A stretch of 64,000 bases of DNA from positions 98,993-162,992 of IMG/VR virus record IMGVR_UViG_3300035520_000484. One strand, 5' to 3'. The position numbers were made by a program, and so were the translations under genes. Every line of letters starts with the position of its first letter. Within the stretch, counting starts at the first letter, position 1. The notes beneath the pieces are model-generated. The model was given only the letters and a program-made list of their open reading frames with translations, ran no database searches and was not told the DNA's origin. Shown here in pieces: positions 412 to 63,059 of this stretch. The DNA comes from a virus. Its lineage: Duplodnaviria > Heunggongvirae > Uroviricota > Caudoviricetes.

Positions 412-1358
412 TTTCAATTTGTCCAATTATTTCTAATTGGATTGGACTATATCTTTAATAGTCTTTCTAATAATTCTGTATTCTTTACAAAAAACATCAT
501 CAGATTTTTTTCTTGAAAATGAACTTAATACACTTGTTAGATTTAGTTCTTTTAACATAGTATAATCTCCATTTTCAGTAATTAAATTTCCATTAGGATC
601 ATAAATAATATATGAATATTTAGTTTTATTTTTTGACATAATTTTGCTTTGTTGCTTTTTTCTTTCATTATTATTTTTCCAATATTCTTTTAATTTATCA
701 GAATGGGTATCTCTTATACCTTCTTCCCATTCTTTTTTAAGTCTATTAGAAATTTTAATAGAAGTTTCTTTAGAACAAAAACATTTTCCCTGTGAATCAT
801 ATCTTAAATTATAACCTTTTTTTCGATCTAGAGAATTTAATTCAATCATCCAATATAGTTCTCTATCATATAAAAGTTTTTCTAAGATTTTAGGATCTTT
901 TTCGTCAAATTTTTCAACAATGTAATATTCAAAGTTATCTTCTCCGTATTTTTTGAAAGCATTTAATAAATGAACATTTTCATTATATTGTCTACTTTCA
1001 ATTCTAATATCTGTTAAATGTTGATGTAATCGTTTATAACAATTTTTTGATTTACCAACATAGATCTTTCCGTTTATAGAATTTTTAATTACATAAATTC
1101 CAGGAAAATTGCAATTTGATTTTTCGATTTTCATATTCAATATCTTTTTTACAAAGATATTAATTCTGAAATTCAAAACCAAATAATTGTTATATAATTA
1201 TTAGTAATAACTATTACCCTCCGTTTCCATCATAATTACATGATGTACTCTACTCAGTTCATACAAAAGTATGCTTTTCGATAGTCTCTGAACCTTCAAA
1301 ATCTATTACATAATAGATTAAGCTTGGCTGCTGATTGTCATACACTTAGTTTCTCAAC
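412..1358 (-). other. Putative group I intron interrupting the DNA polymerase gene. Contains a GIY-YIG homing endonuclease ORF.
   Basis: 176-nt non-coding stretch (1183-1358) plus the endonuclease ORF lie between the polymerase exon 1 stop and an ORF continuation that has no ATG. Two verified RNR introns in the same genome show the same architecture. Confidence 0.35.
433..1182 (-). CDS. GIY-YIG homing endonuclease. Terminates at TAG, then one codon, then TAA.
   Basis: N-terminal motif GIYVIKNSINGKIYVGKSKNCYKRLHQH is a canonical GIY-YIG module. About 249 aa, the typical endonuclease size. Confidence 0.8.
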   Translation of the reverse strand: MVLNFRINIFVKKILNMKIEKSNCNFPGIYVIKNSINGKIYVGKSKNCYKRLHQHLTDIRIESRQYNENVHLLNAFKKYGEDNFEYYIVEKFDEKDPKILEKLLYDRELYWMIELNSLDRKKGYNLRYDSQGKCFCSKETSIKISNRLKKEWEEGIRDTHSDKLKEYWKNNNERKKQQSKIMSKNKTKYSYIIYDPNGNLITENGDYTMLKELNLTSVLSSFSRKKSDDVFCKEYRIIRKTIKDIVQSN

Positions 1359-2831
1359 TTATGCTACAGATTTCCAGCAGTTAAAAGGGTTACGACGCAA
1401 ATAATTTACGTCTCTCAATATAAATTTTGAATATACATTATCTTCAATGTATAGACCTGTAAGTTCAGTCATTTCTTTACCTACTTGTTTAGCCTTATCA
1501 AAATCTTTACGTGGAAGTAAATAAGTAATACCATCTGTGTTATGCTGAATAAATTTAATTTCTGGAATAGCTTTTACTAACTTTTCAGTCCATAATGATA
1601 AAAACATTTGTCCAGATATCGTAGTTTTCATAGTATACAAAGGATCATAGAGAACGGAAGATTCTTCACCGGACTTACCATAGATCCCATTGGCAGCCAA
1701 CTTGAAACCTTCCATAATAACCATATCACGTTCTTTTTTAGGCTTCTTTTTCTCTGCTAATCGTACTGATACAATATCCTTATTATAAATTTCAAGAAAT
1801 GTTTTACCTAAATGTTCAGGATAAATACCTAATTGAATAGCTATACTAGGGTAGAGTGATCCGATGTCTTCGTCTAGTATAGTCCAATAATTATCAGCTT
1901 GATAAATACCTGGTTCAGCAGAACTATGTAGTCCTCCTGTCCCATAATCCATTTTTATTCCATGAAATATAACAGACTCTTCAAAAGATCCTTTAATACT
2001 TTTTATTTTAGTATTAATGAATTTATTTTTAATGTTATTAAATTCTTCTGTTTCAAAATTAGCCCATTTTGGAATACAATCAGCAAGGTTAATAACATCT
2101 CTGTAAGTTCCACCTCTAGCTTTTAATTGTCCAGGATAAGTATTAGTTTTTTCACAATACAAAGAAATAATTAATTGCTCTCCAATTTTAACATCAGGCC
2201 AATTTAAACATGGAATGTGGAATTTATGTTGAAGCTTTTGACGTAGATCTATTTTATTTTTACCTTTATAAACAGGATCATCAGTTTTGCCAAGAGCAAC
2301 TAATAAAAATTTATATGTAGAGAAGACGTCATTCTTGTTATATGCAAGCACTAATTCTTCATCTCCTTGCTTACACCAAGTTGTATGATGAATAGGCATT
2401 TCTTCTACGTTAGGAAGTCTCATTGCTATTTCTAGATCTTTTAATGAACAGGTTCTAGCTTTATTATTATAATGAAATATCCTATATAAATCAATTTGTT
2501 GTATATATTTATTTTTATCAGCAATTACACTAAATTCTTGATTTATAATTTCCTGAGATTTATTATATAAGCATATAGCAACTTCTTGTCCCGATTTATT
2601 TTTATACTTATCATAATGATTTAATATATGATGCTCTAATGGGTAGTCATAGCTCTCATCGTTAAACCCTACTTGAATAATTTTATCTCTAGTAAGATGT
2701 TTATAGAGAGAGTCTAATTCATTACGCCAATTACATATTACAAATTGATAATATTTATTTTCCTTTGGGCAATATCCTGTATATGTAAATAAATTCCTTA
2801 AACATTCTAAATCATATACTTCTAGAATCAT
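1359..2831 (-). CDS. Family B DNA polymerase (exonuclease plus polymerase core); exon 1 if the gene is intron-split.
   Basis: Exo I YDLE, Exo II GFNDESYDYP and Exo III YNKNDVFSTYKF are present. Pol motif A DEDIGSLYPSIAI matches the DxxSLYPS consensus. Motif B KLAANGIYGKSG matches KxxxNSxYG. Motif C reads HNTDGI. Confidence 0.8.
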   Translation of the reverse strand: MILEVYDLECLRNLFTYTGYCPKENKYYQFVICNWRNELDSLYKHLTRDKIIQVGFNDESYDYPLEHHILNHYDKYKNKSGQEVAICLYNKSQEIINQEFSVIADKNKYIQQIDLYRIFHYNNKARTCSLKDLEIAMRLPNVEEMPIHHTTWCKQGDEELVLAYNKNDVFSTYKFLLVALGKTDDPVYKGKNKIDLRQKLQHKFHIPCLNWPDVKIGEQLIISLYCEKTNTYPGQLKARGGTYRDVINLADCIPKWANFETEEFNNIKNKFINTKIKSIKGSFEESVIFHGIKMDYGTGGLHSSAEPGIYQADNYWTILDEDIGSLYPSIAIQLGIYPEHLGKTFLEIYNKDIVSVRLAEKKKPKKERDMVIMEGFKLAANGIYGKSGEESSVLYDPLYTMKTTISGQMFLSLWTEKLVKAIPEIKFIQHNTDGITYLLPRKDFDKAKQVGKEMTELTGLYIEDNVYSKFILRDVNYLRRNPFNCWKSVA

Positions 2832-9563: not shown

Positions 9564-10361
9564 TTAATTACATTTAGAATAACCGTTATATTCTGCAACT
9601 TTACAGCACATCTCCTTAAAGTAATCATTTGAATAAGATTGTTTCATCATATTTATATCTTTGTGTACCCATTGCACATTTCCTTCAACATAACCAATAT
9701 CAGAATTAATTCTGTCCAAAGACCAATTTTGTTGAATAGCTGGTTTAGTTATATCTAATTCAAGAGATAATCCTGAAAGAGCACATTTATGATTTTGTTC
9801 TTCATAAAGTTTTTCAAGATATTCTGGAGTAATATTAAATTCTAATTGGCTAACTTTTTTACGCTTATTTACATTATTAATTATATGAGTGTAAAAACTA
9901 TTAATCATTCCATTAATACTAATTTCTCCATTTTCAGTTAAATAAGATTTATTACCACAGCTTTTACATTTAGTAGTGCTACCAGTTCGTAAAGCAGTTA
10001 ATGATTTCCAAGCAGTATTTCCACAACAACACTGACAAAGTTGATAAAGAGCACGATTACTGCCTACTTTTACTTGATCACTTATAATAGTCCATAATCC
10101 AAATTTTGTACCTACAGGATAAGTATTTCTGGTTTCTTGACGTCTTGATGCACTACGCATTTCAACACCGTGATCTTTTAAGTATTTATCAATGCTTGCA
10201 TGATTTACTCCAGTTAAATCTTCTATTTCTTTTGAAGTTTTATTTTCTTCTACATATAATTTAACCGCATCATAGGTATCTAATATTTCTTTTATTACTT
10301 TAGGAGATCTCCGAGTTCTTTTTACAGGTTGATTCAAATTTTCTTCTTTAACAGTGTCCAT
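9564..10361 (-). CDS. HNH endonuclease with an N-terminal Zn-finger/HTH region; free-standing beside the RNR gene.
   Basis: C-terminal HKCALSG...SLDRINSDIGYVEGNVQWVHKDINMMKQ is an HNH motif (His...Asn...His/Asn). A Cys cluster CQCCCGN...CKSCGN is also present. Confidence 0.6.
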   Translation of the reverse strand: MDTVKEENLNQPVKRTRRSPKVIKEILDTYDAVKLYVEENKTSKEIEDLTGVNHASIDKYLKDHGVEMRSASRRQETRNTYPVGTKFGLWTIISDQVKVGSNRALYQLCQCCCGNTAWKSLTALRTGSTTKCKSCGNKSYLTENGEISINGMINSFYTHIINNVNKRKKVSQLEFNITPEYLEKLYEEQNHKCALSGLSLELDITKPAIQQNWSLDRINSDIGYVEGNVQWVHKDINMMKQSYSNDYFKEMCCKVAEYNGYSKCN

Positions 10362-10446: not shown

Positions 10447-12024
10447 TTATTCACAACGAGTATATGAACAATTAGTACATGAAACACATCCTCCTTGATG
10501 AATTAACGTTGGTTCATGACAATTCGGGCATTCCACTGCTGTAGTAAACTGAACATTACGTTTTTCTTTAGATTCATCATATGAGAGAGCTTTCTTTGGA
10601 AGTATTTCAGGACTTTGATTTAAACTTGAAGTTTCTTCTTCGTGATTACATTTACATACAATATCCTGCATTTCAGCAGCCATACTCTTTAACGCTTCTC
10701 CTACTGCTACAGGACAACAAGATCCTTTTGAAGTATCTTTTTTAGTAGCACTACGAACAGCATATGAAGGACATACACCACAAGATTTAAGCTGATCAAG
10801 AATATTTTCAATTTTAATACCACCTCTTGCAGCAAGACTAATCATACGAGAAAGAGAAATCATAAAGTTATTACATCCTCCTGTACTACCTTTAGAAAGA
10901 TAACATTCTCGTAATTCACCATTAGAAGGATCAAAGTAGGCTGTACAATGTAAACTGCCGCAACCAGTAATCAAGGTTCGCTTAAGACCTATACATTCAT
11001 TACCAGCTTTGATAATTTCTCCTCTTTTTAGTTCATGAGGATTATCTAACTGTAATTTAGCATTATCAGTATTAAGACTAACTTCTTGAGATATTTCTAC
11101 TTCTGGTTTTTCTTTAGATTCTTTCTTAGAATCTGTAGTAAGAATACCTTGTCGTTGACAATTATCTCTCCAAATAGTAACACCCTTTAATCCCTGCTTC
11201 CAAGCTTCTACATAAATATCAAATACTTCTTGTATAGTAGTAGATTCTGGAAGATTAATAGTAGAACTAATTGATGCATCAATATACTTTTGTAAAGCTG
11301 CTTGTACTGCAATTCTCTCAAATGGATTAATATCTTGAGAAGCAACAAAATACTCTGGAAGTTCAGTATTGCCAGTAATTTTTTTGTACTGTTTAACAAT
11401 CTCTGTATCAACCTTATATACAGTTTCTTCTTGATTCAAAGATACTGTACGGCGATTAAATGAGAAGGCAAAGTTAGGTTCTACTCCCGTACTAGCTCCA
11501 ACCATTGTTGCAATAGATCCTGTAGGTGCACAAGTTAGAAGCTGAGAGTTAAATAAACCATACTTTTTAATCTTTTCAAGAAGAGTTTCATCTTTTACAA
11601 TATTTTTAATAAAGCTAGAATTAACTAGTGCTTTATTATTACACATCGGATAACTTCCATGTTCTTTAGCAAGCTTTAATGATTGTTCAATAGCTGCATA
11701 TGCGATAATGCTAAAAACGTCTTTAATTACAGATAGACTTCTTGATGTTCCATAGGTTATTCCCATTTTAATCAACATATCTCCGAGACCAAATGTTCCT
11801 AATCCAATCTGTCGCCATAGGCGTACAGAGTCTCGTTGTATTTGTAATGGATGTAAAGGTAATCCTTCTGTCAAAACTTTATTGAGAGCTTTTACAGCAG
11901 TATAAGTAGCTTCTGTAAGCTCCATTAAATCTATATAAGATTTATCGGAGAATGGATACTTAACAAATTCTGAGAGATTAAGACTGCCCAATAGGCAGGA
12001 ACCTCCTGCTGGGAGCGGCTCTTC
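10447..12024 (-). CDS. Ribonucleotide reductase, exon 3 (C-terminal part). NrdJ-like with a C-terminal CxxC...CxxC zinc ribbon. The ORF track starts at a TTG; the true exon begins at 12024.
   Basis: Exon starts EEPLPAGGSCLLGSLNLSEF, matching the RNR consensus ...(G)E.PL....CNLGSINL.. Later motif TCAPTGSIA matches APTGS. C-terminus CPNCHEPTLIHQGGCVSCTNC. Confidence 0.8.
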   Translation of the reverse strand, partial: EEPLPAGGSCLLGSLNLSEFVKYPFSDKSYIDLMELTEATYTAVKALNKVLTEGLPLHPLQIQRDSVRLWRQIGLGTFGLGDMLIKMGITYGTSRSLSVIKDVFSIIAYAAIEQSLKLAKEHGSYPMCNNKALVNSSFIKNIVKDETLLEKIKKYGLFNSQLLTCAPTGSIATMVGASTGVEPNFAFSFNRRTVSLNQEETVYKVDTEIVKQYKKITGNTELPEYFVASQDINPFERIAVQAALQKYIDASISSTINLPESTTIQEVFDIYVEAWKQGLKGVTIWRDNCQRQGILTTDSKKESKEKPEVEISQEVSLNTDNAKLQLDNPHELKRGEIIKAGNECIGLKRTLITGCGSLHCTAYFDPSNGELRECYLSKGSTGGCNNFMISLSRMISLAARGGIKIENILDQLKSCGVCPSYAVRSATKKDTSKGSCCPVAVGEALKSMAAEMQDIVCKCNHEEETSSLNQSPEILPKKALSYDESKEKRNVQFTTAVECPNCHEPTLIHQGGCVSCTNCSYTRCE

Positions 12025-13162
12025 CTAAAATGTTATCATAAGAGCTTTTTATCTCTTATTTCCGGGAATTTCTTCCATTATACAGATTTATTCATCTGCC
12101 GGATCGGCATATATTTTTATTAATTCTTTTAATTTTATAATTATATCTCTTTTTCCAGATACTCCTAAAACTTTTCCTACAGTCCTAGTATCTTTTACAC
12201 CAATAAATTCTGCTAGATCGTTTAAAAAATTAAGTCTATTCATTTTACAATTTAATACAAGTTCTTTATTATCATGTAACCATTTAAGAATAAGATTATA
12301 TCTCTCATCTTTAAGTTTTGCATAATTTTCCATGTTTACTTGTGTTGCTAACTTAGCTTTTTCAATTACTTCTTCATGTCTAGCTTTTTGAGAACATTCT
12401 TGAGAACAGTAAGTACGATGTTTTGCTTCACAAGGTTTAAGTTTAATAACCTTATGACATACAGGACATTCGAAATCAACAAAATTTTCTAAAGCACGTT
12501 GTTTTATAGTTTCTGTACCTTTTCGGAGACCTTCTCTCATTTTGGCAGCACATTCTTCATTTTGCCATTTTAATTTAGTAGTTTCTCCAATTTTTGCTTT
12601 AGTTTCATCAGTACATTTTCCTCCATTATTTCCACCTGCTTTTAAATTATATCCTTTTTCCTTGTTTTGAGAATCGTATTCTTTAATATACTTAATCTCT
12701 AATTCGTTAAGTATGTTTAAATCATCACATTCTTCTAATATTTCCCAAGTAAAAGAATCAAATCCATATTTTTTTAAAGCATTATGAAAATAATTATCAT
12801 AATATTTAGTCCTGTTACAATCTCTCTGATGTTGACTTTTTCTATGTTCTAAAGAATTAATAGTCTATCCAATATAGACTTTCCCATTGATTTTGTTGGT
12901 TACTTTGTAAATTAACATAATTATAAAAATTTTTAAATTAACATTGGGTACTCGTGGTAACATTATATTTATTCAGTTACTATGCTCTACAGTGATAATT
13001 CGCCTTTTCGTAATCGAATTATTTACCACGGTATTATCAATGCAAATATACATATTCCTTGTAAATTAACAAAATCCACCTACGTTAATTTTTATAAAAT
13101 ATGTATTTTTTGTTTAGACTTCACCGTTTTTACCCAATTTTTAACGTGAGCCGAAGATACCC
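12025..13162 (-). other. Group I-type intron 2 within the RNR gene; carries a GIY-YIG homing endonuclease.
   Basis: Upstream exon ends ...GVNPCA on a U (gct). The intron ends ...ttttag on a G. The downstream exon resumes in frame at EEPLP. The joined protein reproduces the NPC(G/A)E catalytic-loop region. Confidence 0.75.
12088..12918 (-). CDS. GIY-YIG homing endonuclease encoded in RNR intron 2. Has one in-frame TAG codon (plus-strand CTA at 12865-12867) read as Gln.
   Basis: MLIYKVTNKINGKVYIG(TAG)TINSLEHRKSQH...KYGFDSFTWEILEECDD...ELEIKYIKEY...GYNLKAGG is a full GIY-YIG module. The TAG sits at the usual Q/S position after YIG. C-terminal Zn finger CPVCHK...C..EC. Confidence 0.7.
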
Positions 13163-13498
13163 AGCACACGGATTGACTCCTGCATAGCTAAAGTTAGAAT
13201 CCTTGTCTAGCATGTTATAGTTAGTTATATTATCCCAATATAACACTCCAGGTTCAGCCATTTCCCAATTTCGTTTAGCCAGTAACATGAAAATATCGCG
13301 AGCATTAACAGTTTTCTTAATACATTCATGTTCTGTATTAAACGTAAGATCCCAAGGACGGTTATTAATCACTGCATCCATAAAGTTATTACTTACTCGA
13401 ACTGAGATATTAGCCTTAGTACAGATATTTAGGTCAGATTTAAGATTAATAAATTCCTCTAAATCAGGATGAGTACAATCAATAGAAAGCATTGTTGC
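13163..13498 (-). CDS. Ribonucleotide reductase, exon 2 (catalytic-cysteine region).
   Basis: ATMLSIDCTHPDLEEFINLK...NISVRVSNNFMDAV...MAEPGVLYWDNIT...GVNPCA matches the RNR consensus A.M..L...HPDI..FI..K / N.SV.V.D.FM.AV / ..PG..F.D..N / NPC. Confidence 0.8.
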
Positions 13499-14354
13499 CC
13501 TACTTATTAAATATATAAGTAGCAGACTATCTCTTCATAAGGAACTGTGCTTCCTTATGCCATGCGCTTCCACTATAAGAGTTTCACTTATAGTGTACCC
13601 TACTCGGTTATTCACTAATAGCTGTATCAGTTATCCTTTCGGTAGTCGTTACACTTTCATTTGTAAATTCAAAAATATATCCTTTTAATTTTCCCTTAGT
13701 AGGAGTATAAGGACTAGATTTTGCAAGCCAATGTTGTAAGGTAGTAGAATTCTTATATCCATAATATCTAGAGGCATCACTCATATTTGGAAATATGATA
13801 ATATTTCCATTTAATTCAGTGACTTTTACTCTTTTAATATTAGAATATGCACAATTATCAAATCCATGTTGAGTATTATAACTTATACTACACCACTCTA
13901 GATTTTCGACATTATTATTCTTTTTGTCTAAATCTTTATGATTAACTACATTACAACCTTCGATTTCAGGAAGATATTTTAAAGCAACTAATCTATGAAC
14001 TCTAAATGGTTGTCTATTACCATTTGAATCATAAACTAGTGATACATCGTAATATCCGTCTTTATCTTCTCTAAATTTTAAATATCGGCTTGTGTATGGG
14101 CTATATACTTTCCCATCTTTTGAAATTTCATAATGTTCTAAGACATATTTTTCTTTTTCTGTCATAATTTGTAATTTTTATTTTAAAGTTTTTAATTTTT
14201 CGACATTACAAATTTAAACATTATGATTTGAATTTTCAAATGCTTAGCACGGTATTTTATAAAAATTTATTTATAATTCACCGTTAGCAACTTTATGTTA
14301 AAGTTACACCCTATATTTATAGGTTCACATGGTTACGAGGCACATTTTTGGCTT
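13499..14354 (-). other. Group I-type intron 1 within the RNR gene; carries an HNH homing endonuclease.
   Basis: Exon 1 ends ...EGRRG on a U (ggt). The intron ends on a G (agg). Exon 2 resumes ATMLSID. Joining the two reconstructs the conserved GRRGA.M..L...HPD block. Confidence 0.75.
13608..14165 (-). CDS. HNH homing endonuclease encoded in RNR intron 1.
   Basis: HRLVALKYLPEIEGCNVVNHKDLDKKNNNVENLEWCSISYNTQH is an HNH motif with surrounding phage endonuclease features. Confidence 0.7.
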   Translation of the reverse strand: MTEKEKYVLEHYEISKDGKVYSPYTSRYLKFREDKDGYYDVSLVYDSNGNRQPFRVHRLVALKYLPEIEGCNVVNHKDLDKKNNNVENLEWCSISYNTQHGFDNCAYSNIKRVKVTELNGNIIIFPNMSDASRYYGYKNSTTLQHWLAKSSPYTPTKGKLKGYIFEFTNESVTTTERITDTAISE

Positions 14355-14804
14355 ACCTCGACGACCTTCTTGTCCAATTAACCCAGTTACATAACTAAAT
14401 AAGTCCATAAAACTGGTAACACCAGAAGTAGTCTTAGCTGCATTATTAACTTTAGATCCTTTTGGACGTAATTTACTTACATCAACCCCACAGCCTCCAC
14501 CATAACTAAAAGTACGAGCTAATTGAGAGGCACAATTAAAAATAGATTCAAGATTATCATCTGGACTAGGAAGTACATAACAATTTGAGTAAGTTACTCT
14601 TTTACCGTATTTCTCTAATCCTCTATTAGCTAGAATACGACCTCCAAATAAGAACTTCTTATCTATAATTAACTGTCTAACTTTTTTATCACCTCCACTA
14701 ACTCTATCTAACCATTGTTCAAATGATTCATTTTGGTATCTATATTTATTATTCCAAATATCTAATGAAAGTTGATTATCACCAAGCCAGTCTTTTTCGG
14801 TCAT
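14355..14804 (-). CDS. Ribonucleotide reductase, exon 1 (N-terminal part).
   Basis: KYGKRVTYSNCYV...TFSYGGGCGVDVSKLRPKGSKV..TSGVTSFMDLFS...QEGRRG matches the RNR GGG.G...S.LRP.GS and ..G.RRG blocks. The downstream KPKMCLVTM-stop belongs to the intron. Confidence 0.8.
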
Positions 14805-49300: not shown

Positions 49301-50812
49301 AGGGTTTTATAATGCTAAAATTGCAACAAATGCAAATGCTATGTATAAAGCAAAGCATATCTTAGCAGATTTAACTTTCAGTTCTTGATTATCACCTACT
49401 AAATCTTCGATGATAGAATCAATGACGGAATGTATTGTACTTACTATTAAACCAAGAAATAGTAAGACAATACACACCTTCATTATATAGAATATTACCA
49501 CAGCCATAATAATGTGAAGAACATCACTCCTGCCAATATAGCAGGAGCAATGTAATATACATTACGAGATTTCCAATGTTTCATTTCAGTTGAGAATTTA
49601 CATAATCTGCATACGCTTTAAGAAATTCATCAATTCCTAGATAATATGCAACACCATACTTCTTAGCACGTTGTACAAAACATTTCCATGTTAAGTACTC
49701 GCCGATAATCGCTTCCTTGTTTTCAGGACAAGCGAAGTAACGGGAAAAGTTACAGTGCAACTGATCCCAGAGAGATGAGTGAATACCAAAGGCTTCACAT
49801 AAACCTTCATATTCTCTATGTAGTATTTCTTTATTCATAATTAATTTGGGTTTGTGTTTTACACCTAAAACTCTCATGCACATCGGCAAAGTTAGTAATA
49901 TCATGAATACTTTATCACTAACATGAGAGAAACTGGTGCCCTCAACATCTTGGGAAGTTATTGAGTTTTTTAATTTGCTCGTCTTTCCGAGCTGCTAACT
50001 ATCACATTGTATCATTAATACAGGAAAACCTATTCACATACGGTTTATTACTAAGGAATGTGGTACCCCAACCTGTTTTAAACACTAATGACCCCAATAC
50101 GCAGAAATAGTATAGCCAGTTCTTACTACTGCGAGAGTGGTATTGAGACCTTAGATTGATTTAACTTGGATTTCAAAAATATACCAATCATCTCCACCTT
50201 TATGAAAAGCTATATGTTCTTTAGCTTCTTCAAGAGTATTGTAAATACGAACGAGGTTGTCATTGTGGCATACCATATATCCAGATTTGAGTTCTGATGT
50301 TTTCATTGTTTTGTTGTTTTTTGGGTTATACTTCTGTTTCGTCGCAATTTTCAGCGACTCATCAGGTGTCTAATGACACGACAGAACTTAACTACTTTCA
50401 CAAGCAATTAAGTGTATAATTATTCCAAATCATGACCTCCTTAATAAAGGAGGTTTCGTCCTAGTCTCATCAGATGATATTTTAAGGTCTCCTAGGCTGA
50501 CCATAGAAATTTTCTATAATAAGAAAATTTTTAACTTATACGAATAAGTGAATAAATGTGCATACCTATATAGTCCTCGAATGACTGAGGAATTTTATAG
50601 AATGTACATTTGGGAATTAAAGGTGGGTGGTGGGTATAGACCCCCTTAATCGAAGATCCAGCCTATCACCAACCACCTTTTACCAACAATACGAAGCAAC
50701 CAATACCCAACTTTGCCTAACCAGCTATCAGGCAATACTTGAGTATGGTAAAGATTCCCATCATCATCACGAAGAAGGGAATCTTTAATCATAGTTGCTC
50801 TACAACACCGCA

Positions 50813-54117: not shown

Positions 54118-54191
54118 TGCCCAATAGTATAAAGGTTTAATTACGACGCACTCTAAATGCGAAAATAACAGTTCGAGTCTGTTTTGGGCGA
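54118..54191 (+). tRNA. Amber suppressor tRNA (anticodon CUA), reading UAG.
   Basis: Acceptor TGCCCAA / TTGGGCG. D-arm GTA-TAAAGGTTTAAT-TAC. Anticodon stem ACGCA / TGCGA with loop CTCTAAA (C32 U33 C34 U35 A36 A37 A38). T-arm AACAG-TTCGAGT-CTGTT. Discriminator A. Preceded by the hairpin AGTGGGA-atct-TTCCCACT. Confidence 0.8.
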
Positions 54192-54193
54192 CT

Positions 54194-54690: not shown

Positions 54691-55449
54691 TTAATAATGT
54701 TTAGCAGGTACTGGAGCACCTTGATATTGAGTAAACTAAAATCTTGAAGGACCATATGAAAGATTACCAGTGTCTGATAAAGGAGCTAAAGTAGCAGCTG
54801 CCGCATCAGAAGCTCTTTCATCAATACTCTTACTTAAACTACTAGCTTGAGAAGTAGCGTAGCTAAAAGGTGCAGTAGGAAATCCTGCATATCTCTAATA
54901 AGCTCCAAATGTAGGACTAGTTGAATATCCGTAATGTCCTGAAAGACTAGGAGTTTGAATAGTTCTATATGAACTAAGACTAGGTGTAGTTATTTCAGGA
55001 AGTGTTGAATTATCAAAAGCAGGTTCAGAAACATCTGAAGTTGTTACTTCATTAGGAGTAGATGATTTAACAGTAGATGACGTAACAGATTTACTAGTAG
55101 AGATACGCTATCTAGGCTTTAATCTAGTATTAGCAGTAACATCATGAGTTTTTAAATATGTGTCATTTGCAATTTTATTATCTAGTTCTTCATCTGCTGC
55201 TGTATATGTATAATCATCAAACTATTCATCACCTTTAATAACATCTCCTGCTTTAGGAGTTCCTTTAAATAATTTAGTACTTTTAGGAGTTACCCATTCA
55301 TCAGGAACTTCAATTACTTGTCCTATTTTTAATTTAACACTAGGTGTATGGTTAAGCTCTACTAATTTATTGTATTGCCCCCCCCTACCTGTTAATGCTT
55401 TGGCAATACCCCAATAGGTATCGCCTTTTTTAATTATGTACTTTGCCAT
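54691..55449 (-). CDS. LysM-domain protein with a Ser/Thr-rich C-terminal region. Four in-frame TAG codons.
   Basis: N-terminal AKYIIKKGDTYWGIAKAL...YNKLVELN...LKIGQVIEVP is a LysM domain. Reading continues through TAG at 55222 to TAA at 54691. Confidence 0.6.
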
Positions 55450-55562
55450 TTTGTTTTAATTTATTTTAATTTATTTAATTTATTTTACCACCATATTTCT
55501 TCATGTGTATAAAAGGACATAGCCTAATTGTTAATCCTCTTATTTTATTTGTTCTTAAAGTT

Positions 55563-55935
55563 TCAATAGCCTAAAGTATATCTTATATTAGGTATTCTTT
55601 CGGTTATTGGTTCAATGTTAAAATAATCCACAATAGAAGTTCCGTTCTCAGGAGATTCAAATATCATATGAGACGCATCTCTACCATATGCATGAGGCAC
55701 CTTAAGTTTTTCAAGATAGCTATTAGTATTAAATAAAGACACGGAGTTTAAATTTTTAAACATGCCGTCATTCCCTGTATGCATGCCATTAGCATTTATT
55801 GTAATATTTGACGAAAATCTAGGAAATCTCTAACTCCACCATGTTTCTATAGGGCCTTTAGGATTTATGGTCTTGGGAGTATACAAAGCGGTTTTGTTTC
55901 CATACTTCTTAGACCATATTGGATTAAATACAACA
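55563..55935 (-). CDS. Hypothetical late protein (one in-frame TAG). Start overlaps the upstream stop (ATGA).
   Basis: Open with TAG as sense: MNVGNPDVVFNPIWSKKYGNKTALYTPK...W(TAG)RFPRF...MHTGNDGMFKNLNS.... Ends TGA. Confidence 0.5.
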
Positions 55936-57016
55936 TCTGGATTACCTACATTCATATAATACATTCCGTTTTTCCTTCGAAAGTTTTTCCTTGGATAACA
56001 GAAAACGCATTTATTAAATCTTCTTTTGATATATTATTGGGAAGGTTCATCCTTCTTAAGAATGTGTTAGATTGTTTCATTAAGTCTTTAACATAATCTT
56101 CAAGATTTATTATATTCCCATTTCTATAATCATTTGCTATTTGCTGTAAGTACTACGGGGATTCTTTAGCTATATTATACAATACTTTATTATCTTTAAT
56201 AGTCTAAAGGTCTTGAAGATATTGATCGGATGCATTTCTACCCTATTCTAATCCGTCTTTTATATTTTGTAAAGTTGATTCGTCATTAAAATAAAAATCT
56301 CCTTTAGGAGTAATTCTATACTCATTTTCTAAAGCCTATAATTGAGGATTAAGTTCTCTTATTTGGTTTAATGATATATTAACAGGTTCTCCATTTCTAT
56401 TATATTTTTGAGAAAATTGGCGCACTAAAGAAGGATCTTTTATATATTTAAGAAACCTGCCTCTAATATAAGGATTTCTTAATCCTCTCCTTCCTTGTTT
56501 GTTCATATTTTTAGCTAACCACCATACATCTTTAAAATTACGAGAAGTTCTAGCAAGAGCACTTACTCCTTTACCTAAATACTACATACCTTTAGTTGTA
56601 ACATAATCTTCTAAACCTGTGTATGGGGCAACTAAATAGAATAAATCATTACTCTATTCTAAAGGAGCCTCTGATAAGAACGCTCTTTTTCTTGTATTAT
56701 TACCCCATATATCTGTATAGTTAAATCCATTAGCATCCTAAGTAAGTAATGTAGGTAATTGCCAAGGAACAGTGTTAGGATTAACTCCTGTTGTTACTGT
56801 TCCTGCATTTCTTGATTCTGGCTAAGTAATATGAACTATATTTCCATTTACATCTGTATAAATCTCATAATCAGGATTACTATCAAGAACTTCCTATACT
56901 GTTTTTACATTACCATTTGTATCTACAATTTCAGTTATATTTCCCCAATCAGATATATCTTTGACTTTTCTTCTAAAAAGACCGACATTTTTAGTATCAG
57001 CATTATCAAGTGTCAT
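55932..57016 (-). CDS. Hypothetical late/structural protein (about 12 in-frame TAG codons).
   Basis: Open with TAG as sense for about 361 codons: MTLDNADTKNVGLFRRKVKDISDWGN...ECII-stop. Start overlaps the end of the upstream gene. Confidence 0.55.
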
Positions 57017-57758
57017 ATTGTCTAGAATTTTTAAATCGTTGTATTACAGAACCTTGTTTCGCCATAGGAAGAATGTCAGAGGAATCATTCTAAGCTACTT
57101 CATTAAACAATTTTATTAAATCTTTATCTTCAAACATATCTAATTTAAATAGGTTGATTGCATCTCTATGAGAATCTAGAAATTTCTAATCAACAATTTG
57201 TTCTGGTTTCATTTTAGTTGCGTACCTAAATTCCATCATTCGAGAATATATTTCATTAGGATCTAACAAATATTCTGCATTATCACTACTCCATCCATCT
57301 TTTGCTTTAGCTGTCTATTCGATTTCACCAATAGCATATATTTGAGGATTAGCTCTCATAGCATGGGTATATTCATGAAGTTCTGGATACGTATACTTCT
57401 CTTCTTTAAATATAGGAGGTCTTATATGAACTTCATGCTTACTAGGACTGTAATATCCTAAAGCTAATCCACCATCCCAATCGTGGAGTGTATCATTATA
57501 AAGTTTAGCAGATGCAGCATTTTCTATTTGACTATAGAAATTCTTATTTACATAAGTTCTTCTATTAAAAGAATTTGCTCTAGCCCATTCTTTCTACGGA
57601 ATGTTATAAGTATCACGAGAAGTAAAATGAAATATTCCTCCTAAATTGTTATATAACTAAGCTCTTCTGTGATTTAACCAATTAGCTAGCCATTCAATAG
57701 TTTGACTATCACTTTTAGGAGGTTTATAATTAGAAATAGGTGTAGTATAATCTGACAT
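57006..57758 (-). CDS. Putative zincin-like metallopeptidase (HExxH), late gene with six in-frame TAG codons.
   Basis: MSDYTTPISNYKPP...YTYPELHEYTHAMRANPQ... contains HEYTH. Ends TGA. Start overlaps the TAA of the upstream gene (TAATG). Confidence 0.5.
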
Positions 57759-59274
57759 TATTGTTTTTGTTGATTATTTAATAAATACATTCCTCCTGAA
57801 AATATTCCTACTTTCATCATAGCTTCTTTTGCTTTAGAAACTATTTCATTTAATTTAGGATACTTTTTAGCTAACTCTGTTAATTCTTCAGAAGATGCGA
57901 ATAATAAGTTATCAGTATCTATTCCTGTAATATTAGAAATTTCTTTAATTATAGATGAAGTATAAGGCTAGTCTATTTCCATTTTTAAAATTTCTCCTGA
58001 AGGAGTATTTTTGATAACTTCATCTAGTTCTTTTCCAAAAATCAGATTTAGGGATTCCTGCTTTTCCGCTTCAGTAAGATTAGAAGGTCTTTGATAGAAA
58101 GAATAGTTAGCTTTAGGAGTATTAGATACTACTCTTCTAAATCCATAATTAGGTTCCCATATATAAGCAGAAGTATTTTCAAGATTTAGCTAATCTTCAG
58201 AGAATGGGATCCTTCTTCCTGACATATCTCTCTTAGCTACCCGTGCATTTTTTGTAGCAAATTGTAAAGGTTCTCTAGTTACTAAAAGTCCTGGATGACT
58301 AGCATCAATTCCATTAACTATATCACCATCATACCATAAACCTCCCTATTTAAACATTGGATTGTCAAAGGTTTTACCAAAATCGAAAGTTCCAACATTC
58401 GTTTCTACTAAATTAACATTTTCAGTATTAGGATAATCTACTCTAACCTTCCTAGAATTTAAAAAATCTTTAACTATATTTGTAGAACCCTATCTATAAT
58501 TTAAATTCGGGTCATTTATTTCCACATCACCTGAACGATATCTCATCTTAGGAGCTAAGTCTGGAGTTTCTACCTCTCCTAATGGCATTCTACTAAGTTT
58601 ATATCCAAGTATAGATGGCTTGACAGCATTGTAAGAAATCTGTCCAACTCTATTTAGAAATGGAAGACTACTACCTCCAACTACAGAACCTATAAGCTAT
58701 CCTAAATATGGAGAATCATACTATTCCCCAATGTATCTACCACCTTCTCCTCCAATCCATGATCCTATTAATGGTTTTACTCCAATATTTCCAAATAACC
58801 CCAGCAGTCCAAGATCAATAACACCAGATATAGCAGCATTATTAAGTACCTACTAATATCCAGGTATATTATAAGCTCTCATTAATTGCCCCTGTCCACC
58901 TCTAAATAAACTACCAATGAAAGGTACATAGTCTGTAGAATGTGACATAATTTTATCTCCATTTTCTATATTATTTTTTATCTATTCCTTTTCTCTCATA
59001 TATTCTCCAGCCTATTCTTGAGATTGCTTCTAAGCATCTGTTCTATTATCCTAAATTACTTTTCCAGTAGACTACAACTATTTTTTAGGAACCTCTACAT
59101 ATCCATTTTCATATGGAACTCGAGTTACAGATGCATTATGTTTAGCTTCTGATTCTTTAGCTATGTTATATGCAAGTAATCTCTACTCAATATTTATAGG
59201 AGCGGTAGTATTATCAGATAATTCTTTTTGTACGAAAGAGTTTTTAATAATTGGTTTTCCCATATATATTATTT
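57758..59274 (-). CDS. Hypothetical late/structural protein, about 505 aa, Gly-rich hydrophobic segment. About 17 in-frame TAG codons.
   Basis: Open with TAG as sense: MGKPIIKNSFVQKELSDNT...GVIDLGLLGLFGNIGVKPLIGSWIGGEGGRYIG...LLNNQQKQ-stop. The ORF track shows only tiny fragments here. Confidence 0.55.
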
Positions 59275-59279
59275 GCTAT

Positions 59280-60045
59280 ATCTTTTTCTAAAATTTTCAA
59301 TAACATTAATTATTCTACCGCCATATTTATAAGACATATTATTTGCGTACTGATGGATAGTTTCTACATATCCTTTTTCTCCAGAATTAATTTGATTTAA
59401 AGGGATTTTGAACATGTTGATAAGAATATCTTCATCTATATTAGTATCCCATTTATTATAATCAGATTGATGCTTTTTATATTGATATTTAGCATCTTCT
59501 GTTACCCTATCAACATCCCATCCAGATTTTTCCCAACCTTTTAATAATGCAATATAAGGACTATCATCAAAGTATCTCCAATTACTGGTTATAAGAGAAG
59601 GCCCGATACTATCTGGCGAATCCGCATAAATCCAATGGCGAGGAGTACTCTTTCCTAAATAATATCTATTAGATCTGCCAGGATCTGTAGCTCCCGAAGA
59701 CTCTTTAATAGCTATAGCTAATCCCTATTTAGGAGATATTCCAGTAGCTTGTGAAGCCTGTACAATTTTATCAAATACCTCTATAGGTATGTTATAAGTT
59801 CCTCTGCCTTTAACAGTAACAGGTTTAGTTTTACCAGAAAGTTGAATAAGCTGTTTTTCTTCATTATTTATTCTATGAACATATGTAGTAACCGCTTTAT
59901 CAAAAGTTTTTTTAAATTCTGGAGAAGATTTATATTTCTAATATGTGGAAAATTTTATAAAAGGAAATAAAATATACTTTTTTAATCCACCTCCTGAAAG
60001 CCATATTTCATCATTTGATTCATTATGAATATATACTTGTTCCAT
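59280..60045 (-). CDS. Late protein, possibly lysozyme-like (ES motif). One in-frame TAG.
   Basis: MEQVYIHNESNDEIWLSGG...IVQASQATGISPK(TAG)GLAIAIKESSGATDPGRSNRYYLG... Start overlaps the upstream TAA (TAATG). Confidence 0.45.
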
Positions 60046-62030
60046 TATTTAAGTTTTCCTCCTAATTTAAATATTTTTTCAGAGCTTGCGTATCTTTCAG
60101 GAACGTTTACTTCATACCAAGTATTACCCTTTGGATCAGTTACTATAGAAGGTTCTGTTCCAAATAATTTCTTAAACTATTTAGGAAAATCACTATACTT
60201 TTTCAATATAGTTTTGTGAGCATCAGTATAATCTTCTATTTTTGGAACTTCATCCATCATTTGTCGACTACGCATTGTATAGTGATCAAAGATATTCTCC
60301 ATAACATCAGCAGTTCTTTGATCTCTTACATAATTTAGCATGTACTTATCTAAGAGTGTTGTTAAGTCCCCGTCAGTATATGGATCTTTTAATAACGATC
60401 TATAATAATTAACTCGATCTTTGTTTGTAGGATTAGTCTATAAAAATTCTATAAATTTTGTTATCCTAGGATCATTTGCGTATTTAGGATTCTCTTTGAC
60501 TAGATTTAATAAATCAGAAAGGTATCCATGATTATTTACCACATCTTTAAATTTACTTGCTCTCTCATTTAAAAATTCGTACTATTTTTTCTATCCAGGT
60601 GCCCATTGTGGAATTTCCTGAGGTTCATATCCTTCTACAGTAATAGCAGTTTCACGAGTAGGGTAGCGCATTGTTTTATACCCACGTGTGGAAGCGAAAT
60701 CAAGATTTTCTTGTAAGTGTCTGTCCAAATAATTTTTAGCCATATACTCACTAATAATATTTTTTTCTTGATCTTTAGGAGTATTTTTATTAAACCATTG
60801 TGCCCAATCACTTTGTGTTTCTGGAACATATAATACACCAGGCTCATCATATGTAGTAAAGAATCTAGAATGACCAATAGGAGCGCTGTTAAAATGATTA
60901 GTACTACCTCCAACAGAGGGATTATTAAAAGTAAGACTGTATATTTCTTTTACACTTGGATCAGTAGGAAGTTTACCATTTTTTGATGCATCATACCCTC
61001 CTCCATATCGTGTTTTGTGAATTATTTCTTGTCGTGATGGTGCCTTATATCCTAATTCTTTCATTCCATATGCAGCCCATGTATCTTCAAGACCAATATC
61101 TTCATACGAAGGAATTAATTCTGATACTTCCTTTCGTAAATCATTATAATCTATAAACTTATCAGCAGTATGATTTGCTAAAACTTGAGAAATCAATTCT
61201 TTATCTACTTTTGAAACTTCTGGCTTATTTAAATACTATTGTAACTATTTAATAGAAATAGTCCCTTGTTTAGATAATTGTTTTTCTAACTAAGATCCTC
61301 TTGCTAATGATTTAGGCATATAAGCTCCAGGAATTTCCTATATTTTATAAGGTTCTGGAGTAAAATACGGATTAGTTTGACCTTTTGTAAATAATGTTGT
61401 GGGTGTAAAACCATTTGCAACATATTCACCAGTCAAAGGAGTATTATGTAAAACATTACCCATATAACCATAGCCAGTATATTTACCTCCTGATACTCCA
61501 CGTAATGCTTTAGCAAACCAATTAGTATAGTCACTACTTGAACGTGTCATAGGAATTGCTGATAACGCAGTCATTACACCATTATACAAAGAGGGATCTT
61601 TTACAAACTCTTTACCATTATCATATAAGAAATATCCAGAAGTTCCAAGATTAGCAGTTGTGCCTAACCAAGCAGGGGCACCTATCAAATCTAAATAAGT
61701 AGAAGGAGTCATTAATGCTCCGACATAAGGAGCTGTAACAGCACCTAATCCAGCAGCAGCTGCACCTAATGCTTGAGTACCAAAGAAGTTCATCCAACTG
61801 TTTTGATTAAACTAGTTATGCACTCTTTCATCAGCTGCGGCTTTCTCTGTTATTCTAGCGTCAGATTTTTCTAATTGATTGGAAGAGTTTGGAGTAACAT
61901 CAGAACTCGCATATTCTATTCCTCCTGTCTATTCACCAGTATTAGGATTGTGTAAAACATAAGGCTCAACAGGCCTACCTGACAATTTTCCAACAAAAGA
62001 GCCAAGTCCTACTTTTTCTTCTTCACCCAT
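60045..62030 (-). CDS. Large late protein (about 660 aa, 9 in-frame TAG codons). N-terminal Gly/Ala-rich hydrophobic domain paralogous to gene 36613-38577.
   Basis: Continuous frame from ATG 62030 through track ORFs 61338-61793 and 60591-61196 once TAG is read as sense. [64 protein letters not shown] aligns to the paralogue. Confidence 0.7.
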
Positions 62031-62230
62031 TATTCAGTCTTTATATTTTTAAATATACCAGTAACAGAATCTATTCCAAGTAATAAACAGATTGCATAAA
62101 TAAAAGTGTCAATCATTTCAGGAGCTTGTATTCCATTAATGGTACAAAAGATTAATACACCAATAATTACTAAAAATCCAATGACACCACACACTCTTTT
62201 AGAAGATATTCCTGAGTGTGAGGTGACCAT
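62030..62230 (-). CDS. Small membrane protein (2 TM), holin-like.
   Basis: 66 aa: GVIGFLVIIGVLIFCTINGI and FIYAICLLLGIDSVTGIF. Its TAA overlaps the ATG of the downstream gene. Confidence 0.45.
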   Translation of the reverse strand: MVTSHSGISSKRVCGVIGFLVIIGVLIFCTINGIQAPEMIDTFIYAICLLLGIDSVTGIFKNIKTE

Positions 62231-62247
62231 TTTCTTTATAAATTCAA

Positions 62248-63053: not shown

Positions 63054-63059
63054 AGTTTT

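What the first reader, a model, noticed from the sequence alone, without database searches (positions are those of the whole stretch)
10447..14804. Ribonucleotide reductase gene split into three exons by two group I-type introns, each carrying a different homing endonuclease (HNH and GIY-YIG).
The three RNR ORF pieces (14355-14804, 13163-13498, 10447-12024) each carry consecutive conserved RNR blocks. Joining them at U|...G| boundaries reconstructs GRRG|ATMLSIDCTHPD and NPCA|EEPLPAGGSCLLGSLNL, the catalytic-Cys loop. The intervening 856- and 1138-nt segments are non-coding apart from endonuclease ORFs. A doubly intron-invaded RNR with endonucleases from two families is a notable case of selfish-element accumulation. 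The C-terminal CxxC...CxxC Zn ribbon suggests an NrdJ-like (class II) enzyme.
Basis: partly seen in the sequence, partly recalled or inferred. Interest (0 to 1): 0.7.

Follow-up and report, generated by a model that had tools for sequence, protein, structure and literature searches.

The report
Phage reductase gene with two introns
A phage gene for the B12-dependent enzyme that makes DNA building blocks is interrupted by two self-splicing group I introns, each carrying its own homing-endonuclease gene; the reading is correct but this is a well-known kind of selfish-element invasion, with the small twist that one endonuclease gene needs the phage's own stop-codon-suppressor tRNA to be translated.

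Summary
Minus-strand pieces 14804-14355, 13498-13163 and 12024-10447 join in frame into a 787-aa protein. It passes the curated NrdJ (class II, B12-dependent) model and aligns without gaps across both junctions to hundreds of uninterrupted homologues. Both intervening segments have the features of group I introns: U·G at the 5' splice site in a P1 helix, terminal G, P3/P7 pseudoknot core and P4-P6, P8 and P9 helices. Intron 1 aligns with the T4 td intron core. Intron 2 has five same-site relatives in other phages, with compensatory changes in 28 of 52 base pairs. Rfam's Intron_gpI model finds neither, but it also misses the T4 td intron, so that negative is uninformative. Intron 1 carries an HNH gene and intron 2 a GIY-YIG gene. 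The GIY-YIG gene has one in-frame TAG where relatives have Gln. The window also holds a tRNA with anticodon CUA and late-type genes full of in-frame TAG, so the phage reads TAG as sense. Related phages carry introns at about seven positions of this gene, plus inteins at the catalytic Cys. Two introns in a phage RNR gene (Twort nrdE) and recoded intron endonucleases are already published. This is a new member of a known kind.

The parts
14355..14804 (-). nrdJ exon 1 (M1-G150), ending ...CGA GGU
13499..14354 (-). Intron 1, 856 nt, group IA2-like (T4 td type). It ends in G, and its HNH ORF sits in the P6 loop.
14336..14341 (-). Intron 1 internal guide sequence GCCUCG. It pairs with exon CGAGGU (14355-14360) to form P1, with U·G at the splice site.
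14326..14332 (-). Intron 1 P3 5' strand CCAUGUG. Its partner is CGCAUGG at 13560-13566. The pair covaries in the phiAGATE polA intron and the Fusobacterium phage nrdD intron.
14237..14287 (-). Intron 1 P4-P5-P6 5' domain (CUAACGGUGAA...AAUACCGUGCUAAGCAUUUG), alignable with T4 td
13608..14165 (-). HNH homing-endonuclease ORF (185 aa). Its last ~17 codons overlap P6', P7 and P7.1.
13500..13663 (-). Intron 1 3' core: P6' CAAAUGA, P7 GACUA (13643-13647), P7.1 CCGAAAGG, AGUAGGGUA, P7.2 (13571-13595), GAAG, P3' (13560-13566), P8 (13536-13559), J8/7-P7' AAGAGAUAGUC (13525-13535), P9 (13500-13522). The terminal G is 13499.
13163..13498 (-). nrdJ exon 2 (A151-A262), ending ...CCG UGU GCU
12025..13162 (-). 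Intron 2, 1138 nt, a group I intron with an IA-like P7.1. It ends in G, and its GIY-YIG ORF sits in P8.
13145..13157 (-). Intron 2 guide region. UCUUC (13153-13157) can pair with 3' exon GAAGA to form P10. GGCUCACG (13145-13152) pairs with 5' exon CGUGUGCU to form P1 with U·G.
12944..13137 (-). Intron 2 5' core: P3 UUGGGUA (13131-13137) with UACCCAA (12944-12950); P4 ACGGU (13123-13127) with ACCGU (13028-13032); P6 (12997-13020); P7 5' strand GCAUA (12981-12985); P7.1 hairpin (12957-12980); CACGAG
12088..12918 (-). GIY-YIG homing-endonuclease ORF (276 codons plus TAA) with one in-frame TAG. Its last codons overlap P7' and the first helices after it.
12865..12867 (-). In-frame TAG directly after the YIG motif (YIG-TAG-T). 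The same codon is TAG in L022 and CAA (Gln) in L033 and L034.
12026..12111 (-). Intron 2 3' domain: P7 3' strand UAUGC (12107-12111); hairpins here called P9a (12083-12098), P9b with a GAAA loop (12065-12076) and P9c (12040-12057); then GAUAACAUUUUA. The terminal G is 12025.
10447..12024 (-). nrdJ exon 3 (E263-E787 plus stop), including the TSCPD domain and the C-terminal Cys cluster
54118..54192 (+). tRNA with anticodon CUA (amber suppressor), needed to translate the GIY-YIG ORF through its TAG

Best explanation
This is a phage nrdJ gene (class II, adenosylcobalamin-dependent ribonucleotide reductase) transcribed as one pre-mRNA. The transcript carries two mobile group I introns at the most conserved spots of the enzyme. 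One lies between G150 and A151 of the GRRGA motif. The other lies between A262 and E263, inside the N-P-C-x-E active-site loop. Each intron is inferred to fold into a group I ribozyme. Its guide sequence pairs with the end of the upstream exon (P1, with a U·G wobble at the cleavage site), a free guanosine attacks there, and the freed exon end then attacks after the intron's terminal G. The ligated mRNA encodes an intact 787-aa enzyme. The introns persist because each carries a homing endonuclease: HNH in the P6 loop of intron 1, GIY-YIG in P8 of intron 2. In mixed infections the endonuclease would cut intron-less alleles of related phages so that repair copies the intron in. The GIY-YIG gene has an in-frame TAG and can be made full-length only when the phage's tRNA(CUA) reads TAG as sense (most likely Gln). 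This probably restricts its synthesis to the phase of infection when recoding is active. Shown here: gene structure, protein families, RNA helices and covariation, the TAG/Gln correspondence, and TAG recoding in the genome. Inferred: splicing, homing activity, and the timing of endonuclease synthesis.
For: Exon joining and collinearity. NrdJ identity. Splice-site rules (U before the 5' site, G at the intron end).

Intron 1:
- P1 is CGAGGU/GCCUCG with a U·G wobble.
- The core strings CUAACGGUGAA...AAUACCGUGCUAA and UAACGACUA...AGUA...GAAG...GAGAUAGUCU are shared with the experimentally self-splicing T4 td intron, which was fetched and aligned.
- P3 covaries across three introns: CCAUGUG/CGCAUGG, CGUGGUG/CGCCACG, CUAUGUG/UGCAUAG.
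- P7.2 and P8 covary across 7-8 introns.
- BLAST relatives of the core lie in the gaps of split genes in other phages: phiAGATE DNA polymerase and Fusobacterium phage nrdD.

Intron 2:
- Five introns sit at exactly the same codon boundary in other viral contigs. Two of them are ORF-less, at 316 and 336 nt.
- The guide sequence tracks synonymous changes in the exon: CCG/CCA/CCU/CCC and UGU/UGC.
- On the helix alignment, 99% of cells are paired and 28 of 52 pairs change on both sides. The slid controls give 2-7 pairs, and 0 of 500 shuffles reach the observed values.
- MFE and centroid folds of the ORF-less L026 intron recover P4, P5, P6, P8 and three P9 hairpins, and the MFE fold also an approximate P1. 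The z-score is -2.1.
- Core relatives lie in a split helicase gene of a crAss-like phage and a split terminase gene of a Staphylococcus phage.

Mobility: the window and L022 introns are 83% identical while the flanking exons are 68-73%. Relatives differ in intron presence, absence and position.

Endonucleases.

TAG read-through:
- tRNA(CUA) is present.
- Long frames at 54.7-64 kb and 36.6-38.6 kb hold 2-17 in-frame TAG each.
- The TAG in the window and L022 corresponds to Gln in L033 and L034. L022's two internal stops are both TAG, and its frame ends at TAA after 276 codons, the same length as the window's.
Against: No experiment or transcript data show splicing. Rfam Intron_gpI gives no hit at gathering score or at E<=10 for either intron, nor for the ORF-less relatives. 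This is weakened by the same failure on T4 td. The helix strands for both families were chosen by eye and then checked, so the pair counts are biased upward. P7 of intron 2 (GCAUA/UAUGC) is invariant and therefore unsupported by covariation, and it differs from the usual GACUA/UAGUC. P5 of intron 2 could not be resolved. In intron 1 the P3 5' strand is separated from P4 by two hairpins, which is not the textbook order. No relative with intron 1 at exactly this position was found: the nearest introns sit 3 nt upstream and are of another type. Both endonuclease ORFs overlap core helices, so translation could interfere with folding. The amino acid inserted at TAG is inferred from one aligned position.
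Confidence: 0.9

Rival explanations
1. The gene is a fragmented RNR whose three pieces are translated separately and assemble as subunits, as in Aeromonas phage Aeh1 NrdA. The inserts are endonuclease genes without any splicing.
For: Fragmented, functional phage RNRs exist (PMC3045599 and PMC3653736). Exon 2 has an ATG at its third codon. Rfam detects no intron.
Against: The breaks fall inside the GRRGA motif and inside the NPCxE active-site loop, not between domains. Exon 3 has no start codon at its beginning: the first is a TTG 11 codons in. Both inserts carry conserved, covarying RNA helices around the endonuclease ORFs, with U·G and terminal-G splice-site signatures. ORF-less versions of intron 2 exist at the same site, which an endonuclease-only insertion cannot explain.
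Confidence: 0.04
2. The introns or their endonucleases are decayed relics. The ribozymes may still splice, but the GIY-YIG gene is a pseudogene killed by a stop codon, and homing no longer happens.
For: There is an in-frame TAG in the GIY-YIG ORF. Defunct intron endonucleases are known, such as T4 I-TevIII (PMC2790892). The ORF-less relatives L026 and L032 show that the endonuclease can be lost.
Against: The only internal stops are TAG, in both the window (one) and L022 (two). Both frames stay open for the same 276 codons and show no internal TAA or TGA. The TAG aligns with Gln in L033 and L034. The genome encodes tRNA(CUA) and uses TAG as sense in many other genes. The intron is more conserved than the host exons between the window and L022.
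Confidence: 0.12
3. The interruptions are inteins or group II introns rather than group I introns.
For: Related phages do carry inteins at the same active-site Cys (L025, L030, L031: NP|C...HN|CAEEPLP).
Against: In the window the inserts have stops in the exon frame within 10 codons and are not in frame with the exons. No reverse-transcriptase ORF is present and no group II family was hit in Rfam. The boundaries and helices fit group I.
Confidence: 0.01

Closest known systems
[quoted passage not shown] 2002, listed in PMC3984707)
   Same: A phage RNR catalytic-subunit gene carries two group I introns at conserved sites. The introns are of IA2 type with P7.1/P7.2.
   Different: Twort's gene is class Ib nrdE while this one is class II nrdJ. 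The insertion sites differ. Here each intron carries an endonuclease of a different family, and one is written with a recoded stop codon.
Phage T4 td, nrdB and nrdD introns (I-TevI GIY-YIG, I-TevIII HNH, I-TevII)
   Same: Intron 1 shares the td core strings and helix order. The endonuclease ORF sits in a peripheral loop and runs into the core. These are nucleotide-metabolism genes hit at catalytic motifs.
   Different: In T4 the introns sit in three different genes. The intron 1 subfamily has two extra hairpins between the P3 5' strand and P4. No sequence similarity was detected outside the core.
Zeta-group crAss-like phages (Yutin et al. 2021, PMC7886860)
   Same: Genomes are 145-192 kb with a high density of group I introns and inteins in core genes, suppressor tRNAs for UAG or UGA, and recoding mostly in late genes. 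Intron ORFs containing recoded stops were reported there. The window's source contig is about 163 kb and shows all these traits.
   Different: Membership of the window's phage in that group was not tested. The paper's examples are MCP, TerL and PolB, not nrdJ.
Recoded group I intron endonuclease in 'Agate' phages (Borges et al. 2021, bioRxiv 10.1101/2021.08.26.457843)
   Same: An intron-encoded homing endonuclease inside an early gene carries in-frame recoded stops, proposed to delay its synthesis until late infection.
   Different: There the recoded codon is TGA, read as Trp. Here it is TAG, apparently read as Gln, with a single codon placed right after the YIG motif.
Split NrdA of Aeromonas phage Aeh1 (mobE insertion; PMC3045599)
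   Same: An RNR large-subunit gene is broken by a homing-endonuclease gene.
   Different: Aeh1 has no intron and makes two polypeptides. Here ribozyme cores flank the endonuclease genes.

Membership tests
Group I intron | 5' splice site follows a U that forms a U·G wobble with the internal guide sequence in P1 | tested here: met
   Intron 1: CGAGGU/GCCUCG. Intron 2: CGUGUGCU/GGCUCACG. In the five same-site relatives of intron 2 the guide covaries with synonymous exon changes.
Group I intron | Intron ends with a guanosine (omega G) | tested here: met
   G at 13499 and G at 12025. All five relatives of intron 2 also end in G.
Group I intron | Conserved core with P3-P8 and P4-P6 domains and the P3/P7 pseudoknot | tested here: met
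   Helices were located in both introns. Intron 2 covaries in P1, P3, P4, P6, P7.1 and the P9 helices. Intron 1 covaries in P3, P7.2 and P8. Caveats: strands were picked by hand, P7 of intron 2 is invariant, and P5 of intron 2 is unresolved.
Group I intron | Match to the curated covariance model Rfam RF00028 Intron_gpI | tested here: inconclusive
   No hit at gathering score or at E<=10. The positive control, the T4 td intron, also gives no hit, so the model does not cover this subgroup or ORF-bearing introns.
Group I intron, subgroup IA2 (td/Twort type), intron 1 only | P7.1 and P7.2 between P7 and P3', and the J8/7-P7' string GAUAUAGUC | tested here: met
   Order found: GACUA, then CCGAAAGG, then AGUAGGGUA plus a 9-bp hairpin, then GAAG, P3', P8 and AAGAGAUAGUC. 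This aligns with T4 td.
Group I intron | Self-splicing with guanosine cofactor | not testable with these tools
   Needs in vitro transcription and splicing, or RNA-seq.
Class II ribonucleotide reductase (NrdJ) | Score above the curated cut-off of the NrdJ equivalog model | tested here: met
   TIGR02504 NrdJ_Z scores 447 bits against a cut-off of 399.95. The best PDB relative is T. maritima B12-dependent RNR. A TSCPD domain is present.
Class II ribonucleotide reductase (NrdJ) | Active-site Asn-x-Cys-x-Glu loop intact after splicing | tested here: met
   N259, C261 and E263 are invariant in the 15-sequence alignment.
HNH homing endonuclease | HNH_3 domain above the Pfam cut-off, located inside an intron | tested here: met
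   39.4 bits against a cut-off of 24.8. PHROG 59, E 4.5e-34. The ORF lies within intron 1.
GIY-YIG homing endonuclease | GIY-YIG catalytic domain above the Pfam cut-off | tested here: met
   34.4 bits against a cut-off of 22.6 with TAG read as Gln. PHROG 314, E 2.8e-34.
Stop-codon-recoded phage (TAG as sense) | Phage-encoded suppressor tRNA plus many in-frame TAG in long conserved frames | tested here: met
   A tRNA with anticodon CUA is present. Allowing TAG raises frames of >=200 aa from 28 to 37, and single frames hold up to 17 TAG.
Intein | Insert in frame with the host protein, with Cys/Ser at the start and His-Asn at the end | tested here: not met
   The exon frame hits stops shortly after both 5' junctions. 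Relatives L025 and L030 do have inteins.

The most novel reading that the evidence does not exclude
The single TAG placed directly after the YIG catalytic motif, kept at the same codon in two phages whose nrdJ exons are only ~70% identical, may be a selected timing switch. The intron splices early, so RNR is made. The homing endonuclease would be translated only once the phage's tRNA(CUA) is active, which keeps a DNA-cutting enzyme away from replicating genomes until late. A second possibility is that this nrdJ clade, with about seven intron positions and an intein site within 190 codons, is an unusually rich natural system for studying competition between homing elements for overlapping target sites.
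Probability: 0.35. Interest if true: 0.5.

Novelty: new member of a known kind. Interest (0 to 1): 0.33.

Why it matters
For annotation, gene callers split this essential gene into three "RNR" fragments plus truncated endonucleases. The source's own call covers only 492 residues of exon 3. Standard tools miss both the introns (Rfam) and the recoded endonuclease. For biology, it adds a class II RNR example to the classic pattern of homing elements targeting catalytic motifs of nucleotide-metabolism genes. It also gives a TAG-coded counterpart to the proposed late-gated intron endonuclease of TGA-recoded phages. Finally, a single gene family is shown to collect introns at many neighbouring positions as well as inteins. 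None of this changes current understanding.

Tried and rejected
- Rfam was run at gathering score on the whole window and at E<=10 on 11900-14500. It found no Intron_gpI. The same held for ten related loci, including the ORF-less introns, and for six more loci. The T4 td control also failed, so this test was dropped as non-diagnostic.
- Megablast of the region against 50,697 phage records found no match.
- A look-up of the source contig through protein P0082 found nothing on record.
- A MAFFT alignment of hand-shortened intron 2 sequences (A2) misaligned P1, P6 and the P9 region. It was replaced by a helix-only alignment (A3).
- My first guess for P7 of intron 1 (CAGCUAU) was abandoned once alignment with td, phiAGATE and the Fusobacterium introns showed the real strand, AACGACUA, 20 nt upstream.
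- P5 of intron 2 could not be placed consistently in L032, L033 and L034 and was left out.
- I expected L023, L033 and L032 to share intron 1. They have a different intron one codon upstream.
- PHROGs gave no hits for the three largest TAG-rich ORFs, so their function stays unknown.

Full report
**1. Observation**

On the minus strand, ORF fragments 14804-14355, 13498-13163 and 12024-10447 carry consecutive RNR sequence. Pfam Ribonuc_red_lgC covers residues 73-546 in a single stretch over profile positions 1-522 of 523 (E 3.8e-101), followed by TSCPD.

A search of 5.8 billion proteins returned hundreds of uninterrupted proteins of about 730-870 aa with 58-71% identity over 99-100% of the query. 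It also returned one 492-aa JGI protein, 100% identical to exon 3, from a 162,992-bp contig, evidently the source. In a 15-sequence alignment there is no gap at either junction, and the residues on both sides are invariant: G147-A151, and N259, P260, C261, E263-L266.

**2. Identity of the enzyme**

NCBIfam TIGR02504 (NrdJ_Z, adenosylcobalamin-dependent ribonucleoside-diphosphate reductase) scores 447 bits against a curated cut-off of 399.95. The best solved relative is the Thermotoga maritima B12-dependent RNR (1xje, E 2.8e-62). The second junction lies inside the N-P-C-x-E active-site loop.

**3. The Rfam test is negative and uninformative**

Intron_gpI gives no hit in the window at gathering score or at E<=10 on 11900-14500. 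It gives no hit on natural ORF-less relatives of intron 2 or on other split phage genes. As a positive control I fetched the T4 td intron, annotated in the record as the group IA intron encoding I-TevI. Rfam misses it too at E<=10.

**4. Intron 1 (13499-14354)**

- The exon end CGAGGU pairs with intron GCCUCG (14336-14341), giving P1 with U·G at the splice site. The intron ends in G.
- The 5' part contains CUAACGGUGAA...AAUACCGUGCUAAG. This aligns with td CUAAACGGGGAA...AAUCCCGUGCUAAA, which is P4, J4/5, P5, P4' and P6.
- The 3' part, in order, is: UAACGACUA (P7), CCGAAAGG (P7.1 with a GAAA loop), AGUAGGGUA, a 9-bp hairpin (P7.2), GAAG, CGCAUGG (P3'), a 9-bp hairpin (P8), AAGAGAUAGUC (J8/7 and P7'), an 8-bp hairpin (P9), then G. 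This order and these strings are shared with td and with introns in other loci.
- P3 (CCAUGUG/CGCAUGG) changes on both sides in the phiAGATE DNA-polymerase intron (CGUGGUG/CGCCACG) and a Fusobacterium phage nrdD intron (CUAUGUG/UGCAUAG). P7.2 and P8 differ in sequence but stay paired in 7-8 introns.
- BLAST relatives of this core lie in unannotated gaps of split genes: phiAGATE polymerase A.1/A.2 and phiKSUM nrdD in three pieces.
- The HNH ORF (13608-14165) fills the P6 loop. Its last codons run through P6', P7 and P7.1.
- One oddity: in this subfamily two hairpins lie between the P3 5' strand and P4.

**5. Intron 2 (12025-13162)**

tblastn of the spliced protein against 38 related viral loci showed many interrupted copies. 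Five have an insert at exactly the A262|E263 boundary. L022, L033 and L034 carry a GIY-YIG ORF. L026 (with its duplicate L027) and L032 are ORF-less at 316 and 336 nt.

All share the same plan:
- a guide sequence pairing with the exon end (window: CGUGUGCU/GGCUCACG, U·G at the site), preceded in most by a UCUU(C) stretch that can pair with the 3' exon GAAGA (P10);
- P3, then AAA, then P4 (A/UCGGU), GAA, P5, AAU, P4', and P6;
- UGUAAC-GCAUA (P7 5' strand), a hairpin (P7.1), and CACGAG;
- P3' and P8, which is where the ORF sits. The ORF-less forms have a plain hairpin here;
- UAUGC (P7'), a three-hairpin 3' domain including a GAAA tetraloop, and GAUAAYA...G.

The guide sequence follows synonymous third-position changes of the Pro and Cys codons. 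On an alignment of the helix strands joined by fixed linkers (A3), 99% of cells pair. Of 52 pairs, 28 change on both sides, against 2-7 when partners are slid by 1-3 columns, and 0 of 500 shuffles reach the observed values.

Caveats apply. I chose the strands by eye. P7 never varies. P5 was left out. An unconstrained fold of L026 recovers P4, P5, P6, P8 and three 3' hairpins in both the MFE and centroid structures, and an approximate P1 in the MFE structure only (z = -2.1). Core relatives occur in the gap of a split helicase gene of crAss-like phage cr118_1 and of a split terminase gene of a Staphylococcus phage.

**6. The endonucleases and the TAG**

Both endonuclease families are confirmed. 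The GIY-YIG frame reads ...GKVYIG-TAG-TINSLEH... (TAG at 12865-12867). L022 has TAG at the same codon and a second TAG at codon 212, and ends at TAA. L033 and L034 have Gln (YIGQT) at that codon. The window and L022 proteins are both 276 aa, with no frameshift or other stop.

The window encodes a tRNA with anticodon CUA (54118-54192). Long minus-strand frames at 54.7-64 kb and 36.6-38.6 kb hold 2-17 in-frame TAG each. So the phage reads TAG as sense, and the endonuclease gene is most likely intact but dependent on the suppressor. The RNR exons contain no TAG.

**7. Mobility**

The window and L022 introns are 83% identical, while the flanking exons are 68-73%. Across relatives, nrdJ is interrupted at the following places:
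- near residue 74 (L006, L014; type of insert not checked);
- near residues 101-103 (L016, L024; td-type core);
- between R149 and G150 (L023, L032, L033);
- within the Cys261 codon (L021);
- at A262|E263 (six cases);
- 10 nt further on (L037);
- by inteins at Cys261 (L025, L030, L031).

L032 and L033 carry two introns each, one near each of the window's two sites.

**8. Comparison with what is known**

RNR is reported as the most frequently intron-split phage gene (PMC3653736). [quoted passage not shown] Zeta-group crAss-like phages of 145-192 kb combine dense group I introns, inteins and UAG/UGA suppressor tRNAs, including recoded stops in intron ORFs (PMC7886860). A recoded intron endonuclease in an early gene, proposed to be held back until late infection, was described for TGA-recoded phages (bioRxiv 10.1101/2021.08.26.457843). 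The nearest cultured relative of the enzyme is Bacteroides phage BS-TP1 (63%, uninterrupted).

**9. Verdict**

The finding is a well-formed new example of a known phenomenon. Its modest points of interest are the TAG-dependent endonuclease, the crowding of homing elements in this gene family, and the blindness of standard tools to all of it. Interest 0.33.

Noticed in passing
window 54694-64000 and 36616-38586 (minus strand); tRNA at 54118-54192 (+): The phage reads TAG as a sense codon. Long frames hold 2-17 in-frame TAG each (for example 57761-59296 with 17 and 36616-38586 with 15), and a tRNA with anticodon CUA is encoded next to them. The replication-gene region around nrdJ is almost free of TAG.
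   Followed up: partly
window 415-1407 (minus strand); ORF 433-1182: A third group I intron (993 nt) splits the DNA polymerase gene. The exons join in frame as ...FILRDV|NNYIAVYEDG.... The intron has AACUGCUGGAAA...CAGCAGCCAAG...GGUUCAGAGACUA and AAGAUAUAGUC core strings and carries a second, TAG-free GIY-YIG ORF. Rfam misses it as well.
   Followed up: partly
window 50331-50387 and 50429-50503 (minus strand): Two hammerhead ribozymes lie about 40 nt apart: type III (49.8 bits) and RAGATH-1 hammerhead (76.7 bits). Both are above Rfam gathering scores. Their role is not examined.
   Followed up: no
window 9564-10361 (minus strand): A free-standing endonuclease VII/HNH-type ORF (265 aa; PHROG 1035, E 8.9e-21) lies 86 nt downstream of the nrdJ stop. 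This recalls the free-standing mobE endonuclease next to the T4 nrd genes.
   Followed up: partly
L025 6745-7770; L030 and L031 6745-7495: Related phages carry inteins at the catalytic Cys261 of nrdJ (NP|C...HN|CAEEPLP). An intein and three different intron positions therefore target the same 15-nt stretch in this gene family.
   Followed up: partly
L032 and L033 (also L023) around R149|G150: These relatives have an intron one codon upstream of the window's intron 1. It is of a different type (UGUAGAGACUA...AAGAGAUAGUC). L032 and L033 also have the A262|E263 intron, so doubly interrupted nrdJ genes recur.
   Followed up: partly
window 14289-14323 (minus strand), and L039, L042: In the intron 1 subfamily two hairpins lie between the 5' strand of P3 and P4, where textbook group I introns have only a 3-4-nt joiner. 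P3 itself is supported by compensatory changes in three introns.
   Followed up: partly
window 36616-38586 and 60048-62033 (minus strand): Two large TAG-rich ORFs share a similar N-terminal segment (motif GNQLEK...ADERVH.QF.QNSW...GTQA.GAAAAG...[19 protein letters not shown]), followed by unrelated C-terminal parts. Neither has a PHROG match.
   Followed up: no
L026 10699-10913; L016 12760-12993: Related contigs hold a HEARO RNA (102.5 bits) and one intron that Rfam does recognise as Intron_gpI (95 bits), outside nrdJ.
   Followed up: no
L039 (Bacillus phage phiAGATE 47885-52984); L042 (Fusobacterium phage phiKSUM 10268-15378): Public records annotate intron-split genes as separate or 'truncated' proteins (DNA polymerase A.1/A.2; nrdD in three CDS). 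No intron feature is listed for either stretch, although td-type intron cores lie in the gaps.
   Followed up: partly
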